The position numbers and the translations under genes are program-made. The notes under the pieces are model-generated. The model ran no database searches, was not told where the DNA came from, and worked only from the letters and a program-made list of their open reading frames with translations. A DNA stretch of 64,000 nucleotides from a virus, in IMG/VR virus record IMGVR_UViG_3300045993_000562, positions 1-64,000 of that record; one strand, 5' to 3'. Numbering within the stretch: the stretch's first letter is position 1; each line of letters opens with the position of its first letter. Below are positions 12,930 to 48,580 of the stretch, piece after piece.

Positions 12930-13008
12930 TGGGGGGCCAGATAGGACTCGAACCTATATTGATCCAGTTACACGGCTACCGCTTAGAAGGCGGTTGTGAT
13001 ACTGACCC
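12930..13008 (-). tRNA. Atypical tRNA-Arg(TCT) lacking a canonical D-arm
   Basis: GGGTCAG/CTGGCCC acceptor, ACCGC-CTTCTAA-GCGGT anticodon arm, ATAGG-TTCGAGT-CCTAT T-arm, CCA. Confidence 0.7.
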
Positions 13009-40184: not shown

Positions 40185-41876
40185 TTACGCTTGTATTCCA
40201 TCGTACTCCTCCATCAATCGTCCACGGATTTGAGCCAACGTCTGTTCTTTAACCAGTACGCCGTCCTTGAAGACTACCTCCAAGCAACCTTGAGCTTCTT
40301 GCTCCCAAGTCTGTTGGTCGTACAGAACGTACTTACCGTCCTCACGTTCAACACGGAGTAAACCCTTGGCGGATTTCTTCATGCCGTCATCAGTCTTTGG
40401 ATCTTTGAACAACTCACGGAACTCACCATCAACAATAGCCGCTGTGGCTTTAACTGCCATTCCATAAGAGTCTCTCGTAACAAATTGGTACGAAAAGCTA
40501 CCGACGCCATACACGGAATTACCACTAGAGAAGCCTTTTCCAGCCAATATAGCACAAATTTCTTCTGCACGACTGACGGTTATAGAGTCACCGTAGATAA
40601 GTCCTACACGTTCATGTAGTTGCTTGAATCCCTTATCGGTAATAGTGCCCCCAAATATACCCCATAAACATTCGACTGCACCTACAGCTTCAGGTACAGA
40701 GATTTGACGACCGTACGTCATTACTAGGCTGTCGTCCTCATAGTCACCAAGGGCTGAGGCCGTATGGTATATACCTCTATTCTTCACGGCTTCATAGCAG
40801 TTCTCCCAGAACTTAACTACGTTGGAATATACTTCAAGACTACCATCTATTGAAGTATTCCACACTTTATGACCACATAGTATCTTTACAGGATCACCAC
40901 TATCTGGGCGGAATACTACCTTTGCCATACCAAGTGCATTCACTGGGCGGTTCAGAATCACTTCCTTAAGCTCATGGGCCGTGATGGTGATGACCTTCCA
41001 GAAGTCCCAAGTATCCGACACTACCGAGACAATACCTGATGGGGTAACTTCTGTAATCAGGCGACGAATGGTTTCTACTTCATTCTCGTTCCCACCAGCG
41101 CAGATTACACTATGCTCGCTGGCCGGAACACTACCTCCTACCATCTCTTTTTCCGCATCGGCACCATAGAAATTCTCGGCGTAGTCAATAGCCGCTATGG
41201 TATCTGTACCGAAGAAAGAAATTAGGTGACCTAATCCGGATTGAGAAGCATCATGTAAACCAGAAAGCCCACGCTCACTAAAGTCGTGAGCTTGCCACTT
41301 GACGAAGTCGGGATGAACACCGGTCAACTCTGCATACTTGCGCAGAATCTTGTAGTACTCAAATGCAGTAGTAGCACTAGTGATAGTCTTCCAAGTTTCG
41401 CAAGACAGGGACGTCTCTAGATAATTAGTCAACCAGAAGAAATCAGGATGCGTATTCTTGATAGTGTAGACAGGAACCCGCATAGGAACCAAACTACCTT
41501 CAGGCAATGCCTTTATCTCAATAGGCATATATCCTAGATCGTGTAGGGCTTCAAATCTGGCCATAGAGACCGAGTCGGGACCTAGTGCCGCATCCATACG
41601 ACGTTTGTACTTTGCGACTACCTCATCCTTTGGTTGACTGAAGAACTCTTGATTCCAGCAGTCTATGAGGAACCATTTGATAAAACCTTGTAGTCCTGCA
41701 AAGACCACCGTCTCTGGGCATCCGTCATCAGATCTAATGTGCTCCGAACGACTAGCCGAACGCGGTGTCATATTTGAGTAGATCATTTCAGTACCTTTGG
41801 GGTACATTTCCGCATGTGAGACTTTGTAGAAATCACATGCTGTCAGGGGGTTTATTGGGAAATACGATTTTGACAT
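40185..41876 (-). CDS. Nicotinamide phosphoribosyltransferase-like (NARP1 Namat candidate)
   Basis: DFYKVSH, HDFSERG, ASEHSV, SVVSDTWD, RPDSGDP and KKSAKG motifs. Confidence 0.9.
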   Translation of the reverse strand: MSKSYFPINPLTACDFYKVSHAEMYPKGTEMIYSNMTPRSASRSEHIRSDDGCPETVVFAGLQGFIKWFLIDCWNQEFFSQPKDEVVAKYKRRMDAALGPDSVSMARFEALHDLGYMPIEIKALPEGSLVPMRVPVYTIKNTHPDFFWLTNYLETSLSCETWKTITSATTAFEYYKILRKYAELTGVHPDFVKWQAHDFSERGLSGLHDASQSGLGHLISFFGTDTIAAIDYAENFYGADAEKEMVGGSVPASEHSVICAGGNENEVETIRRLITEVTPSGIVSVVSDTWDFWKVITITAHELKEVILNRPVNALGMAKVVFRPDSGDPVKILCGHKVWNTSIDGSLEVYSNVVKFWENCYEAVKNRGIYHTASALGDYEDDSLVMTYGRQISVPEAVGAVECLWGIFGGTITDKGFKQLHERVGLIYGDSITVSRAEEICAILAGKGFSSGNSVYGVGSFSYQFVTRDSYGMAVKATAAIVDGEFRELFKDPKTDDGMKKSAKGLLRVEREDGKYVLYDQQTWEQEAQGCLEVVFKDGVLVKEQTLAQIRGRLMEEYDGIQA

Positions 41877-41884
41877 TTATACTC

Positions 41885-42721
41885 CTAAATCTCTATATGT
41901 TTAACAATTTTTGAATCCAACTTAGCCTCATCGAAGCAATGATGATAGTACAACTCATCTATTATTCCGTCAAGAACAGAAGTTCCGTACCCAGCAATGA
42001 GATGAGTTACATATAACATAACTTTACCATTAGTTAAGGGTTTTAATTTTTTCCCTAATTCGACGTAGGTTTTCAATCCGTCCCCCACGTCATCTACAAT
42101 GAAGAAGTCCTTATCCCCAATGTGTTCCGAGTATACGACGGTATCGGTTATTTTACCAGTAGCAACGTCCCGCACCTTATCAGCACGAACCACCTCTTTG
42201 ACGTTCATGGCTTTAGCCACTTCCAGCACCTTTTTATTGGCACCAGCATCAGGAGAGACTAGAACTAAGTTATTCCTGGCGTCAAGGGACATACGTGTAG
42301 TTGCATGAAACCCCAATATCAAAGAGGCCTTTTGTACGGTGCAATTGTCAAGCAACGCTGGAGTAACATCACTATGAGGGTCTGTTATCCAAACACCGTG
42401 TAACTTCATAGAGTTAATTAAGTCACAGAATACCTTTATGGAAAAGGACTCTCCTTCCGAACAGACCCTATCCTGCCTCCCGTATGGGACATACGGCAGC
42501 TCTAAGCATATTGGCCCAGACCCCATACGGCGCAAAGCATCTACTACCATTAGAAGTCTCATTACTCCGGCTGAGTCGTATAGGTACGCAATGATATGTA
42601 TGCTATAGCTAATAATTACTTGCTTGTTATCATCAATACGTACGTACTCTTCTCCCCCAGGAAACTTAGAGTATTTCATGGCTATAGGTCTACCACCAAC
42701 TAATACTTCTATCTTCGACAT
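41885..42721 (-). CDS. Ribose-phosphate pyrophosphokinase-like (NARP1 Adps candidate)
   Basis: FPGGE, PYVPYGRQDR, DPHS, VSPDAGA and IVDDV motifs. Confidence 0.88.
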   Translation of the reverse strand: MSKIEVLVGGRPIAMKYSKFPGGEEYVRIDDNKQVIISYSIHIIAYLYDSAGVMRLLMVVDALRRMGSGPICLELPYVPYGRQDRVCSEGESFSIKVFCDLINSMKLHGVWITDPHSDVTPALLDNCTVQKASLILGFHATTRMSLDARNNLVLVSPDAGANKKVLEVAKAMNVKEVVRADKVRDVATGKITDTVVYSEHIGDKDFFIVDDVGDGLKTYVELGKKLKPLTNGKVMLYVTHLIAGYGTSVLDGIIDELYYHHCFDEAKLDSKIVKHIEI

Positions 42722-44666: not shown

Positions 44667-44884
44667 TTGAATCTCCTTTAATTGTCTACATAATCTTATA
44701 CCACCAAAGTTGGACTTTATTTAGCTAAAAAAACCAACTTGAAAAACCTATTTAAAGCATCCTAAGTGCAGAGTCTATGTCCAGGAAAGGAGGGCAACTA
44801 GACACAGACAACTCAGGACGCTTTAAATAGTACCCTTATTCTAAATCGCTATAGTAACGAGGGTACTACGTACATTTGTACAAC

Positions 44885-45054
44885 ATACAAACTTACTCAA
44901 CCGGGTTCAGGTTTAATTATAATGATGTTAAATCCACGCTCTACCGCTGAGCTACCCCAGTATTAACCGCCCTATTCTAAGGTAGTTAGCACTGGGAACG
45001 GGATTTGAACCCGCGCCTTGGATTAATAGTTGTATAGCCGAAGAGTGTTTGTAC
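44885..45054 (-). ncRNA. Circularly permuted tRNA-like RNA, unit 2 (YrlA-like topology)
   Basis: AATCCA stem > T-arm GCGGG-TTCAAAT-CCCGT > loop-closed acceptor helix > D-arm GCTC-AGCGGTA-GAGC > TGGATT; outer TACAAAC/GTTTGTA stem. Confidence 0.8.
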
Positions 45055-45069
45055 GTTTTTTACATTTAC

Positions 45070-45265
45070 GATGTGTGGTAATACGATGATTATGACTATA
45101 AGTGCATACAATAATACCCGACGTCTGAATGCGTCTACCAATTCCGCCAACCCCAAGCTAACTACATTACTATGCAGTTAATTTGGAGTCCTGGAATCGA
45201 ACCAGGAAAACTTCAGACGGAGTACATCCTATGCGTCATGATAACGATAACGATGACCACAAATC
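45070..45265 (-). ncRNA. Circularly permuted tRNA-like RNA, unit 1 (YrlA-like topology)
   Basis: CGTCTGAA > T-arm CCTGG-TTCGATT-CCAGG > loop-closed acceptor helix > D-arm GCGGAATTGGTAGACGC > TTCAGACG; outer GATTTGTGGT/ACCACACATC stem. Confidence 0.8.
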
Positions 45266-45366
45266 TTCAATGCTGTACTACGAATTTAATGCCTAACTTG
45301 CCAGAATTCTCTTGGTACTCAAGGCACTGGACATGACCAACAAGTCAGGACTTTACCCTACCAGCC

Positions 45367-46158
45367 TTACCGAACGCCCACGTTAGTGGACTGCTCGTTC
45401 AGGGGAGCTAGAATACGCGAAATCAGCGTATCACCAATGGAGTCTTCTACAGCAACAGAAGTGTTAGCACGCATGCGGGCCTTTTTCACTTCACCGATCA
45501 GCTCGTCCACATTACGCAGAACTTGAGCCTTCTGTAGAGAGGTAGCTGCACCGCTATACGAGATAGTGGTATTTGTACCTACAACTACGTCCTGATTGAT
45601 CTCTTTGATCTGAGCAGGATGTTTGTCGGTTGCTTCGTAGAGTACTACTGGTGTCGTCTTCTTCTCTGTCTTGGTAGTGACATCAGGATTACGGGCCTTC
45701 CAGGCTGTACGGCCGGTGGAGGTATCCGCGTCCCACACTTTGGATGCGTCAAGTGTAGGCATCTGTGTCAACATACCGCGTAGATTAGTCAGACGAACTT
45801 CTAACCCCAGCAACTCATCAACAGGTACTTCACGGGCAATTACTGCGCCACCGAAGTACAAGTCAGAAGCTGCTGACTGGTTTGTTTTGTTCTTGCGGAA
45901 GATGATGTCTTCAGCTTTTGCCCAATGTTCAGCGTAGTATTCCAAAGTCTCTACTACTGTAGTTGGCAAAGCTTTGAACTCAGTGTTGGATACTTCCAAC
46001 GCCTGGTTCTCAGGGCTATCCGCAATCATCTTCAAGGTCTTGTTGTGGCCTTTGAAGAATTGTTCTTTCTGGAACTTACCAGCAGTATCTGCGGTAAGAA
46101 CAGACAATTGAGTTAGTAGACCCTTCTCAACTGCCAATAATTCGTGTAGCTGTGCCAT
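45367..46158 (-). CDS. Conserved uncharacterised coiled-coil protein upstream of the tRNA-like RNAs
   Basis: MAQLHELLAVEKG...P.LD...EATDKHPAQ...SGA...KKARMRAN; resembles (from memory) the DUF7873-type family. Confidence 0.7.
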   Translation of the reverse strand: MAQLHELLAVEKGLLTQLSVLTADTAGKFQKEQFFKGHNKTLKMIADSPENQALEVSNTEFKALPTTVVETLEYYAEHWAKAEDIIFRKNKTNQSAASDLYFGGAVIAREVPVDELLGLEVRLTNLRGMLTQMPTLDASKVWDADTSTGRTAWKARNPDVTTKTEKKTTPVVLYEATDKHPAQIKEINQDVVVGTNTTISYSGAATSLQKAQVLRNVDELIGEVKKARMRANTSVAVEDSIGDTLISRILAPLNEQSTNVGVR

Positions 46159-46159
46159 G

Positions 46160-46477
46160 TTAAGCTCCTTGTAGGTTATTCAAACGACGTGCGATCTCTT
46201 GTTTACCCTGATGTGGGGAGTACTTGCTAGATCCCTTCAGGAACTTCTGAATACGATTAGCCATGTTAGCTATCGCCAAGTTCAGGTCCCAGATTGGACG
46301 AACAATACCATACTTCTCTTTCAGTGTGTTATTAACACCCTGTTCGTGACGATGGTACCCTGTCAGCTTTTCCTCTTGAGCTGCAACGTCTGTGAATTGG
46401 TAGTCTGCATCACGACCAGACTGAGCTCGTTGTTCACGACGAGTAGCTTTTTGTTTCAATGTGTTACGTGCACTCAT
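46160..46477 (-). CDS. Small basic hypothetical protein
   Basis: AAGGAG RBS; abuts the coiled-coil gene. Confidence 0.6.
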   Translation of the reverse strand: MSARNTLKQKATRREQRAQSGRDADYQFTDVAAQEEKLTGYHRHEQGVNNTLKEKYGIVRPIWDLNLAIANMANRIQKFLKGSSKYSPHQGKQEIARRLNNLQGA

Positions 46478-48279: not shown

Positions 48280-48580
48280 AAATGGGCCGGGATCATTATC
48301 ACCCAGCCCACTCTATTCTAGCTCTGGTTAGAAACCGCTAGACAGGTTCCGCTTAGGCTTGTGCAGCCCATGCTCCTTGCGAGTCGTTTGCAGGTATTTT
48401 ACTTTTGCCATTTACGTCGGTCAACTGACGATTCCATCGAATGTTAGTAATACTAGATCGAGTCTGTATCTGGCCCATTAAGAAGACCCCTTGGTAAGAG
48501 TCTTTTTGGTGGACCGGCCGGGGTACTGCCCCCCGGGTCTCCAATATCTTTCGCATTCAATGCTTTACAGGTTACCCTGT
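48280..48580 (-). ncRNA. ssrA: Permuted (two-piece) tmRNA, tag ANDSQGAWAAQA (outer ends approximate)
   Basis: Acceptor 3' piece ...CCGGGGGGCAGTACCCCGGCCGGTCCACCA (CCA at 48507-48509) precedes 5' GGGCCAG (48476); G3-U70 pair; tag ORF 48353-48391. Confidence 0.85.

What the first reader, a model, noticed from the sequence alone, without database searches (positions are those of the whole stretch)
44885..46477. Coiled-coil gene followed by two tandem circularly permuted, anticodon-less tRNA mimics with periodic single-stranded flanks
Seen: downstream of 45367-46158 are two units ordered stem > T-arm (TTCGATT / TTCAAAT) > acceptor helix closed by a hairpin > D-arm (GG-containing) > stem. The cores are at 45122-45219 and 44931-45024. 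There is no anticodon loop and no CCA. The 'anticodon' stem opens into long loops with ~6-nt periodicity (CATCGT TATCGT TATCAT; TAGTCA TAATCA TCGTAT) closed by an outer stem. Known: this topology matches bacterial YrlA Y RNAs, which partner Ro60/Rsr, but no Ro/TROVE gene is in this window and I see no clear Ro-binding helix. Inference: a Ro-independent ribonucleoprotein in which the coiled-coil protein polymerises on the periodic repeats and displays tRNA elbows, perhaps as a decoy for tRNA-targeting defences or a ribosome/RNase modulator.
Basis: partly seen in the sequence, partly recalled or inferred. Interest (0 to 1): 0.9.

Follow-up and report, generated by a model that had tools for sequence, protein, structure and literature searches.

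The report
Phage tRNA-mimic RNA beside DUF7873 gene
Right after a phage gene of unknown function (DUF7873) lies a folded RNA of about 380 bases built from two back-to-front tRNA look-alikes, and this gene-RNA pair recurs in very different phages that lack the Ro60 protein such RNAs normally serve, so it probably marks an undescribed RNA-protein system tied to phage tRNA biology.

Summary
On the minus strand, downstream of the DUF7873 gene (45367-46158), lie two circularly permuted tRNA bodies at 45216-45125 and 45023-44932. Neither has an anticodon loop or a CCA.

- **Significance.** My covariance model scores them at E 3e-7 and 1e-19.
- **Conservation.** All 80 viral contigs with DUF7873 homologues (down to 34% identity) have a match in the same place, 75 of them at 40 bits or more. 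So do four cultured phages of Gordonia, Vibrio, Rhizobium and Arthrobacter. 19 of 21 base pairs show compensatory changes. The flanking genes are not conserved.
- **New here.** Two thirds of related units encode N-CCA after a 7-bp acceptor stem, often with U at -1. This suggests RNase P cutting into a two-piece RNA, as in M. smegmatis YrlA. The module sits in phage tRNA/tmRNA clusters. AUCGU motifs are about 8-fold enriched in the flanks.
- **Ro60.** No TROVE gene is in the contig or in complete phiRSL1, and none scored above cut-off in 201 Burkholderiaceae genomes. The Ro-binding motif is absent.
- **Limits.** The protein's fold matches nothing informative. Binding, expression and function are untested. 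A few such RNAs occur without DUF7873.

This scan has found the same module before in many other genomes.

The parts
45367..46158 (-). DUF7873 protein gene (263 aa), the only protein gene conserved with the RNA
   Evidence: Pfam PF25283 E 1.2e-68. 692 homologues. AF2 pLDDT 87. Flanking ORFs have no homologue in about 90 related loci.
45256..45260 (-). 5' strand of the outer closing stem of unit 1 (GUGGU)
   Evidence: Pairs with 45075-45079. RNAalifold on an unguided alignment recovers it with compensatory changes. Also present in the minimum-energy fold.
45244..45254 (-). Two AUCGU motifs (45254-45250, 45248-45244) in the internal loop 5' of unit 1
   Evidence: Conserved as CAUCGUUAUCGUUA in relatives. 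The pentamer is 8.6-fold enriched in RNA flanks.
45125..45216 (-). Unit 1: permuted tRNA body with a tRNA-Leu-like D arm (3 bp, 11-nt loop), A73, no CCA and an acceptor closed by a 26-nt hairpin
   Evidence: Descriptor hit. R1 31.6 bits, E 3e-7. The rod-like fold has z -4.6.
45068..45087 (-). Two further AUCGU motifs (45087-45083, 45072-45068) flanking the 3' strand of the outer stem (ACCAC, 45079-45075)
   Evidence: Conserved as UAUCGUAUU plus stem in relatives. Enrichment.
44932..45023 (-). Unit 2: permuted tRNA body of the ancestral, family-wide type (D arm GCUC-AGCGGUA-GAGC, T loop UUCAAAU), no CCA
   Evidence: R1 70.3 bits, E 1e-19. Rfam YrlA 24.3 bits, below the gathering score of 69. 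Consensus with covariation.
44883..45055 (-). Outer stem of unit 2 (45055-45042 pairing with 44898-44883), which marks the 3' edge of the roughly 380-nt RNA
   Evidence: Minimum-energy fold. Not tested for covariation.
44727..44830 (-). Long hairpin (44830-44811 with 44766-44747) followed by U tracts: likely terminator of the DUF7873-RNA unit
   Evidence: Read from the sequence and the fold. The simple terminator scan missed it, since stem and loop exceed its limits.

Best explanation
This is a two-part phage module: the DUF7873 gene and, 100-250 nt downstream on the same strand, a stable non-coding RNA. The RNA is made of one (ancestral) or two (phiRSL1-like clade, as here) circularly permuted tRNA bodies.

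Each body keeps what makes the tRNA elbow: U8, A14, G18G19, the T loop UUCRANY, a 7-bp acceptor and a 5-bp anticodon-type stem. The anticodon loop is replaced by an A/U-rich internal loop and a closing stem, which is the layout of a Y RNA.

Inferred steps:
1. The RNA is transcribed with the gene and the neighbouring tRNAs.
2. It is recognised by tRNA enzymes. In most relatives RNase P cuts at +1 and the encoded N-CCA is exposed, giving a two-piece RNA like M. smegmatis YrlA or a two-piece tmRNA. The window's own copies have lost the CCA and probably stay in one piece.
3. It works in trans with DUF7873 as a Ro60-independent RNP. The RNP presents tRNA elbows and acceptor ends to host or phage tRNA-handling factors during the fight over the tRNA pool.

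Shown: the structure, its conservation, the gene-RNA coupling and the absence of Ro60. Inferred: processing, binding and the biological role.
For: - **Structure.** 97% of cells paired, 19 of 21 pairs with compensatory changes, covariation score 1.0 against 0.19 or less for slid controls. Unguided RNAalifold recovers the T arm, acceptor, D arm and closing stems.
- **Coupling.** R1 matches at the same place after the gene in all 80 viral loci (75 at 40 bits or more; homologues down to 34% identity) and in Gordonia, Vibrio, Rhizobium and Arthrobacter phages. Median gap from the stop codon is 151 nt. No flanking ORF is conserved.
- **Reverse test.** Of 10 permuted units found by pattern alone, 7 have DUF7873 directly upstream, against 2 of 114 ordinary tRNA junctions.
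- **RNA survives separation.** The RNA is kept when homing-endonuclease genes or a tRNA separate it from the gene. This argues for action in trans.
- **Processing signals.** N-CCA in 51 of 80 units, with U at -1 common. A 7-bp acceptor was the determinant of RNase P cutting of YrlA (PMC4201824).
- **Context.** tRNA or tmRNA genes lie within 2.5 kb in 38 of 60 loci. A true permuted tmRNA and tRNAs lie 3-6 kb upstream here.
- **No Ro60.**
Against: - There are no expression, processing or binding data. No RNA-seq run holds the stretch.
- DUF7873 is near-neutral (median pI 6.0) and has no recognisable RNA-binding fold.
- Family-grade permuted units (52-57 bits) exist in two near-complete phage records (359 kb and 105 kb) that lack DUF7873, so the RNA does not always need the protein.
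- The window's own units lack the CCA.
- The AUCGU motif is clade-specific.
- An earlier check in this scan priced direct binding at 22 in 100.
Confidence: 0.42

Rival explanations
1. The element acts in cis as a processing and stability signal. The permuted tRNA body is 'punctuation' that lets RNase P and 3' trimming enzymes separate the DUF7873 mRNA from the downstream tRNAs. This leaves the mRNA with an exonuclease-resistant, tRNA-like 3' end. No RNP forms with DUF7873.
For: Always on the same strand and just 3' of the gene (median 151 nt). Encoded N-CCA, 7-bp acceptor and U at -1. Embedded in tRNA arrays that are matured by the same enzymes. A terminator follows.
Against: The RNA is retained at full score when an opposite-strand endonuclease gene, a tRNA or 500-960 nt of other DNA lies between it and the gene. 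It occurs in arrays without the gene. Conserved closing stems and AUCGU loops are not needed for punctuation. It is unclear why only this gene would need such a signal across such distant phages.
Confidence: 0.2
2. The RNA is an autonomous tRNA decoy or sponge. It acts alone on a host factor that reads the tRNA elbow or acceptor end, such as RNase P, PNPase, tRNA-modifying enzymes or toxins that act on the CCA end. DUF7873 is a separate tRNA-related protein that merely travels with it.
For: Orphan units exist without DUF7873. The tertiary-contact nucleotides are conserved. CCA ends in relatives. Phage tRNA arrays are known counter-defence loci (PMC7824862). The protein is not basic.
Against: DUF7873 was never seen without a model match downstream in 84 loci. 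This asymmetry is typical of a protein that depends on its RNA. No other gene is co-conserved.
Confidence: 0.2
3. It is an ordinary YrlA Y RNA serving a Ro60/Rsr protein encoded elsewhere in the phage or in the host.
For: Same topology, and weak Rfam YrlA matches (24 and 32 bits). Only 43% of this phage genome is in hand.
Against: No TROVE in complete phiRSL1. None of 201 Burkholderiaceae genomes scored above cut-off. The GNCGAAN0-1G motif is at background frequency. Scores are far below the YrlA gathering score of 69.
Confidence: 0.03
4. It is a true circularly permuted tRNA gene. The ends are joined (circular intermediate, phage RNA ligase) and the acceptor spacer is removed to give a working tRNA.
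For: The order 3' half, N-CCA, spacer, 5' half is that of permuted tRNA genes of algae and archaea. The origin is plausibly the junction of a tandem tRNA duplication. Unit 1 looks like tRNA-Leu with A73.
Against: The bases next to the 5-bp stem show no U33 or purine-37 pattern, and extension pairs are at chance level. The flanks instead form conserved closing stems. The window's units lack CCA.
Confidence: 0.03
5. These are decayed tRNA genes or the junction of two tandem tRNAs, with no function of their own.
For: Tandem tRNA junctions do give R1 matches of 18-47 bits.
Against: No complete tRNA overlaps the units. The acceptor and closing stems pair 94-100% with compensatory changes across phages of distant hosts, which junctions do not show (acceptor unpaired).
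Confidence: 0.02

Closest known systems
YrlA-class bacterial and phage Y RNAs with Ro60/Rsr (Rfam RF02553; Chen et al. 2014, PMC4201824), especially M. smegmatis YrlA
   Same: Permuted tRNA module (T arm, acceptor-like stem-loop, D arm) on a stem with an internal loop and a closing helix. Often in tandem. M. smegmatis YrlA has a 7-bp acceptor, is cut by RNase P and gains CCA, giving a two-piece RNA. Most relatives of this RNA carry the sequence signs of that fate.
   Different: No Ro60 in the phage or its likely host family. No GNCGAA Ro-binding motif. Scores are far below the Rfam threshold. The constant neighbour is DUF7873. It has a long acceptor spacer hairpin and AUCGU-rich loops, and it lies in phage tRNA arrays.
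Two-piece (circularly permuted) tmRNA (Rfam RF04321, RF01849, RF01850)
   Same: A permuted gene order of T arm, acceptor 3' strand with CCA, spacer, then acceptor 5' strand, matured by tRNA enzymes into two base-paired pieces. A genuine one lies 3 kb upstream in this window (48359-48580, 73 bits).
   Different: A true D arm is present. There is no tag reading frame or pseudoknots (ARAGORN finds none). There is no G3:U70 pair. tmRNA models score 14 bits or less here.
Circularly permuted tRNA genes of Cyanidioschyzon, green algae and Thermofilum (from my own knowledge; not read here)
   Same: The 3' half precedes the 5' half, with the acceptor ends linked by a short spacer that starts with the discriminator base and CCA.
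   Different: Those genes keep both halves of an anticodon loop and mature into working tRNAs through a circular intermediate. Here the anticodon loop is replaced by conserved internal loops and a closing stem.
Phage T4 stable RNAs rnaC and rnaD in the tRNA cluster
   Same: Small stable RNAs of unknown function encoded in a phage tRNA cluster.
   Different: R1 gives only 17 bits on rnaC, and the other T4 matches are tRNA junctions. T4 did not appear among the 75 phage records with DUF7873 (60 of them listed).

Membership tests
YrlA / Ro60-associated Y RNA (Rfam RF02553) | Scores at or above the Rfam gathering threshold (69 bits) | tested here: not met
   Unit 2 scores 24.3 bits (E 0.054) and unit 1 has no match. 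The phiRSL1 homologue scores 32 bits.
YrlA / Ro60-associated Y RNA (Rfam RF02553) | Permuted tRNA-like module: T arm, acceptor-like stem-loop and D arm, closed by a stem | tested here: met
   Descriptor and covariance model. Covariation in all four helices.
YrlA / Ro60-associated Y RNA (Rfam RF02553) | A Ro60/Rsr (TROVE) gene adjacent or in the same genome | tested here: not met
   None in the 76-kb contig (43% complete), in complete phiRSL1 or in a 112-kb relative. None above cut-off in 201 Burkholderiaceae genomes.
YrlA / Ro60-associated Y RNA (Rfam RF02553) | Ro60-binding helix with the GNCGAAN0-1G motif (PMC4201824) | tested here: not met
   Absent from both units of the window. Present in 4 of 80 5' flanks, which equals the background rate of 0.05 per 80 nt.
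Two-piece (permuted) tmRNA | Match to tmRNA covariance models, a tag reading frame and the G3:U70 alanine identity pair | tested here: not met
   beta_tmRNA scores 13.8 bits against a gathering score of 84. ARAGORN finds no tmRNA. Position 3:70 is G:C in unit 1 and U:A in unit 2. The real permuted tmRNA of this window passes at 73 bits.
Functional (permuted) tRNA gene | Anticodon-loop halves next to the 5-bp stem (U33, purine 37) that could be joined | tested here: not met
   No conserved bases after the stem, and extension pairs at chance level. Flanks form closing stems instead. No tRNA called by ARAGORN or Rfam.
DUF7873 (Pfam PF25283) | Scores above the Pfam gathering threshold over the full length | tested here: met
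   231.9 bits against 27, residues 1-249 on profile positions 1-241 of 244.
Ro60-independent RNP of DUF7873 and the tRNA-mimic RNA (proposed) | Physical binding of the protein to the RNA | not testable with these tools
   Only genetic linkage is shown. No RNA-binding fold is recognised and the median pI is 6.0.

The most novel reading that the evidence does not exclude
DUF7873 and this RNA form a new, phage-specific ribonucleoprotein. Its RNA is cut by RNase P into a two-piece tRNA mimic with a genuine CCA acceptor end, possibly even aminoacylated (unit 1 carries tRNA-Leu identity features). The particle protects or manages the phage's tRNA supply, for example as bait for host toxins and nucleases that act on the tRNA body or acceptor end, or as a platform for tRNA repair. 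It would be the functional counterpart of Ro60-Y RNA built on an unrelated protein.
Probability: 0.25. Interest if true: 0.85.

Novelty: new variant of a known kind. Interest (0 to 1): 0.72.

Why it matters
tRNA-mimicking Y RNAs are so far understood only as partners of Ro60. Here a Y-RNA-like tRNA mimic is locked to a different, unstudied protein in phages of Proteobacteria, Actinobacteria and Cyanobacteria, and it sits inside their tRNA clusters. That points to an unknown player in the phage-host conflict over tRNAs. It also gives DUF7873 its first functional lead, and it offers cultured phages (phiRSL1, Klebsiella FBKp24, Gordonia Fryberger, Arthrobacter Mimi) in which to test it. The encoded CCA and the RNase P-type junction further suggest that natural two-piece tRNA-like RNAs are more common than tmRNA and one mycobacterial Y RNA.

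Tried and rejected
- **Fold searches.** I searched with the full DUF7873 model and with residues 96-240 alone (Foldseek PDB and VIA-align wide). They returned only generic helical-hairpin matches and 3kdq (unknown function, Z 9.2, rmsd 7.8).
- **Sequence and family searches.** PDB sequence profile search, PHROGs, NCBIfam and PADLOC and ESM Atlas gave nothing usable. The search for longer, fused forms found none.
- **Expression.** No RNA holder is listed for the stretch.
- **Promoter and terminator scan.** Nothing on the minus strand. The terminator-like hairpin was read by eye.
- **Direct repeats on both flanks.** As a family-wide feature the effect is only marginal (longest shared word 6.3 nt against 5.6 nt when shuffled), so I kept AUCGU as a clade-specific motif.
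- **T4 rnaC/rnaD as members.** Rejected.
- **Literature.** No hit for DUF7873 and nothing on permuted tRNA-like RNAs in phage tRNA clusters.
- **Bacterial genomes.** The genome-contig scan found only 6 MAG contigs, and DUF7873 was found in none of 299 other genomes sampled from the class. I treat the family as essentially phage-borne, but the peptide patterns used reach only close relatives.
Full report
**Setting.** The window is part of a 76-kb viral contig, estimated 43% complete. Wetland and pond metagenomes hold it. It is related to the Ralstonia jumbo phage phiRSL1. All features discussed lie on the minus strand.

**Observation.** The ORF at 45367-46158 is a full-length DUF7873 protein (PF25283, 231.9 bits).
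- Unit 1 spans 45216-45125 and unit 2 spans 45023-44932.
- ARAGORN and the Rfam tRNA model find no tRNA there.
- A strict descriptor hit only these two places in 128 kb of window sequence, counting both strands.
- Rfam's YrlA model aligns unit 2 end to end, but at 24 bits against a threshold of 69.
- Neither unit has an anticodon loop or CCA.
- Unit 1's D arm (GCGGAAUUGGUAGACGC) and its A73 are those of a tRNA-Leu.

**Conservation.** I collected 80 viral contigs with DUF7873 homologues of 34-56% identity and four cultured phages of Gordonia, Vibrio, Rhizobium and Arthrobacter.
- The descriptor found a permuted unit downstream, on the same strand, in 77 of 84 sequences.
- I built covariance model R1 from 24 units with a structure I wrote by hand. 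On that MAFFT alignment 97% of cells pair and 19 of 21 pairs show changes on both sides. The covariation score is 1.0, against 0.19 or less for slid controls. The sequences had been chosen by a descriptor that demands pairing, so the percentage paired is partly circular. The variety of compensatory pairs is not.
- R1 then scored 75 of 80 viral loci at 40 bits or more, at the expected place. The other five scored 19-32 bits at the same place, mostly because their spacers are long.
- The window scores 70.3 bits (unit 2) and 31.6 bits (unit 1). Unit 1 belongs to a second type that was not in the model.
- Junctions of ordinary tandem tRNAs give 18-47 bits, but with unpaired acceptors.
- RNAalifold on unguided alignments of the phiRSL1-like clade recovers the arms and the outer closing stem of unit 1 with covariation.
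- Distant relatives have one unit, of the unit-2 type. The phiRSL1-like clade and Arthrobacter phage Mimi have two.

**The pair is the unit of conservation.**
- The ORFs flanking the module in the window have no homologue in about 90 related loci. Elsewhere the neighbours are neck genes, a metabolic gene, homing endonucleases or tRNAs.
- The gap from stop codon to unit has a median of 151 nt. In 12 loci 500-960 nt intervene, including an opposite-strand NUMOD3 endonuclease gene (L041) and a tRNA (L056), yet the RNA keeps its score.
- In a reverse test I scanned viral contigs for a sequence pattern that fits both tRNA junctions and permuted units. Of 124 matches, 10 were permuted units. Seven of these had DUF7873 directly upstream, against 2 of the 114 junctions.
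- The other three units score 52-57 bits. Two of them lie in near-complete phage records (359 kb and 105 kb) with no DUF7873 anywhere.
- So the protein always comes with the RNA, but the RNA does not always come with the protein.

**New details.**
1. In 51 of 80 non-redundant units the acceptor 3' strand is followed by N-CCA, where about 1 in 64 is expected by chance. Short spacers usually end in UAU just before +1. Long spacers pair the CCA with a UGG. Together with the 7-bp acceptor, these are the features that made M. smegmatis YrlA a substrate of RNase P and of CCA addition in vivo (PMC4201824). I therefore expect most family members to become two-piece RNAs. The window's units read ATTA and GCTA at that place and may stay whole.
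2. The nucleotides that build the tRNA elbow are kept: U8 in 76 of 80 units, A14 in 60 of 80, GG in the D loop, and the T loop UUCRANY.
3. The anticodon-type stem is 5 bp and does not extend regularly beyond that. Extension pairs are at chance level.
4. In the two-unit clade the loops carry AUCGU motifs (CAUCGUUAUCGUUA on the 5' side, UAUCGUAUU on the 3' side, and a third copy after unit 2). The motif is 8.6-fold enriched over the rest of the loci. Other clades have other flank sequences.
5. The module lies in phage RNA islands. 38 of 60 loci have tRNA or tmRNA genes within 2.5 kb on the same strand. In the window a genuine permuted tmRNA (48359-48580, 73 bits) and tRNAs lie 3-6 kb upstream.
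6. A long hairpin with U tracts (44830-44727) probably ends the transcription unit.

**Ro60.**
- TROVE is absent from the contig, from the complete phiRSL1 genome and from a 112-kb relative.
- None of 201 genomes of Burkholderiaceae scored above cut-off. That family is the likely host group, because the bacterial contigs that carry close homologues are Burkholderiales MAGs.
- The Ro-binding motif GNCGAAN0-1G occurs at background frequency.

**The protein.** DUF7873 is found in 75 GenBank phage records, from Ralstonia, Klebsiella, Rhizobium, Vibrio, Arthrobacter, Gordonia, Rhodococcus and cyanobacterial hosts. In the annotated records it is always called hypothetical.
- It is rare in bacterial genomes.
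- AF2 gives confident models (pLDDT 87 for the whole protein, 92 for residues 96-240) with four long helices and long beta-hairpins. No informative structural or family match was found.
- No fused forms were found.
- Invariant residues include the motifs GLE, W, HPAQ, KTEK and ARxRAN.
- The family is near-neutral (median pI 6.0), which does not favour a simple electrostatic RNA binder.

**Interpretation.** The structure, its conservation, the gene-RNA coupling and the absence of Ro60 are shown. The rest is inference.
- My preferred reading (0.42) is a Ro60-independent, Y-RNA-like RNP. Its RNA presents tRNA elbows and, in most relatives, a processed CCA end. It acts in the tRNA-centred conflict between phage and host.
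- The main rivals are a cis-acting processing and stability signal (0.2) and an autonomous decoy with DUF7873 only co-travelling (0.2).
- An ordinary YrlA, a true permuted tRNA gene and tRNA debris are each unlikely.
Factors that read the elbow or the acceptor end are better candidates.

**Earlier work.** This scan has flagged the same DUF7873-RNA module in many other genomes. Those follow-ups reached the same structural conclusion. A later check priced direct binding at 22 in 100. I found no publication describing it.

Noticed in passing
window 48359-48580 (-): A genuine circularly permuted (two-piece) tmRNA gene: Rfam tmRNA_permuted scores 73 bits (gathering 47) and alpha_tmRNA 62.8 bits. 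ARAGORN did not call it.
   Followed up: partly
window 12933-13008 (-): The Rfam tRNA model matches at 36.7 bits where ARAGORN reports no tRNA.
   Followed up: no
L003 3875-3998 (-) = phiRSL1 NC_010811 about 188801-188924: A 124-nt stretch matches the whole Rfam tRNA model (41.3 bits) between ORF268 and ORF269. It is unannotated, and the record lists RNA1 and RNA3 but no RNA2. It may be a tRNA with an insertion or intron.
   Followed up: no
L182 2251-2322 (+), L213 682-756 (-), L124 1997-2076 (+): Permuted tRNA-like units of family grade (52-57 bits) sit inside phage tRNA arrays without DUF7873. Two are in near-complete records of 359 kb and 105 kb. The 359-kb record has a weak TROVE-like ORF (20-24 bits). 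The L213 unit is flanked by direct repeats of about 50 nt.
   Followed up: partly
L002 2283-3011 (+) and 3729-4445 (-): NUMOD3 homing-endonuclease genes are inserted on both sides of the DUF7873 gene. One lies on the opposite strand between the gene and its RNA.
   Followed up: partly
L010, L015, L025, L007, L012 unit 2 spacers (alignment A7, columns 141-175): The hairpin that closes the acceptor of unit 2 has a conserved sequence (RCAUUC...GAGUGY) in many relatives. The window's copy differs.
   Followed up: no
L022 3486-3569 and L023 4211-4295 (+): ARAGORN calls a tRNA-Asp with the unusual anticodon ATC between the DUF7873 gene and its RNA.
   Followed up: no
window 40185-42721 (-): An adjacent NAMPT-like gene (PF04095) and PRPP-synthetase-like gene (PF13793). 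This pair is typical of phage NAD+ salvage against NAD-depleting defences.
   Followed up: no
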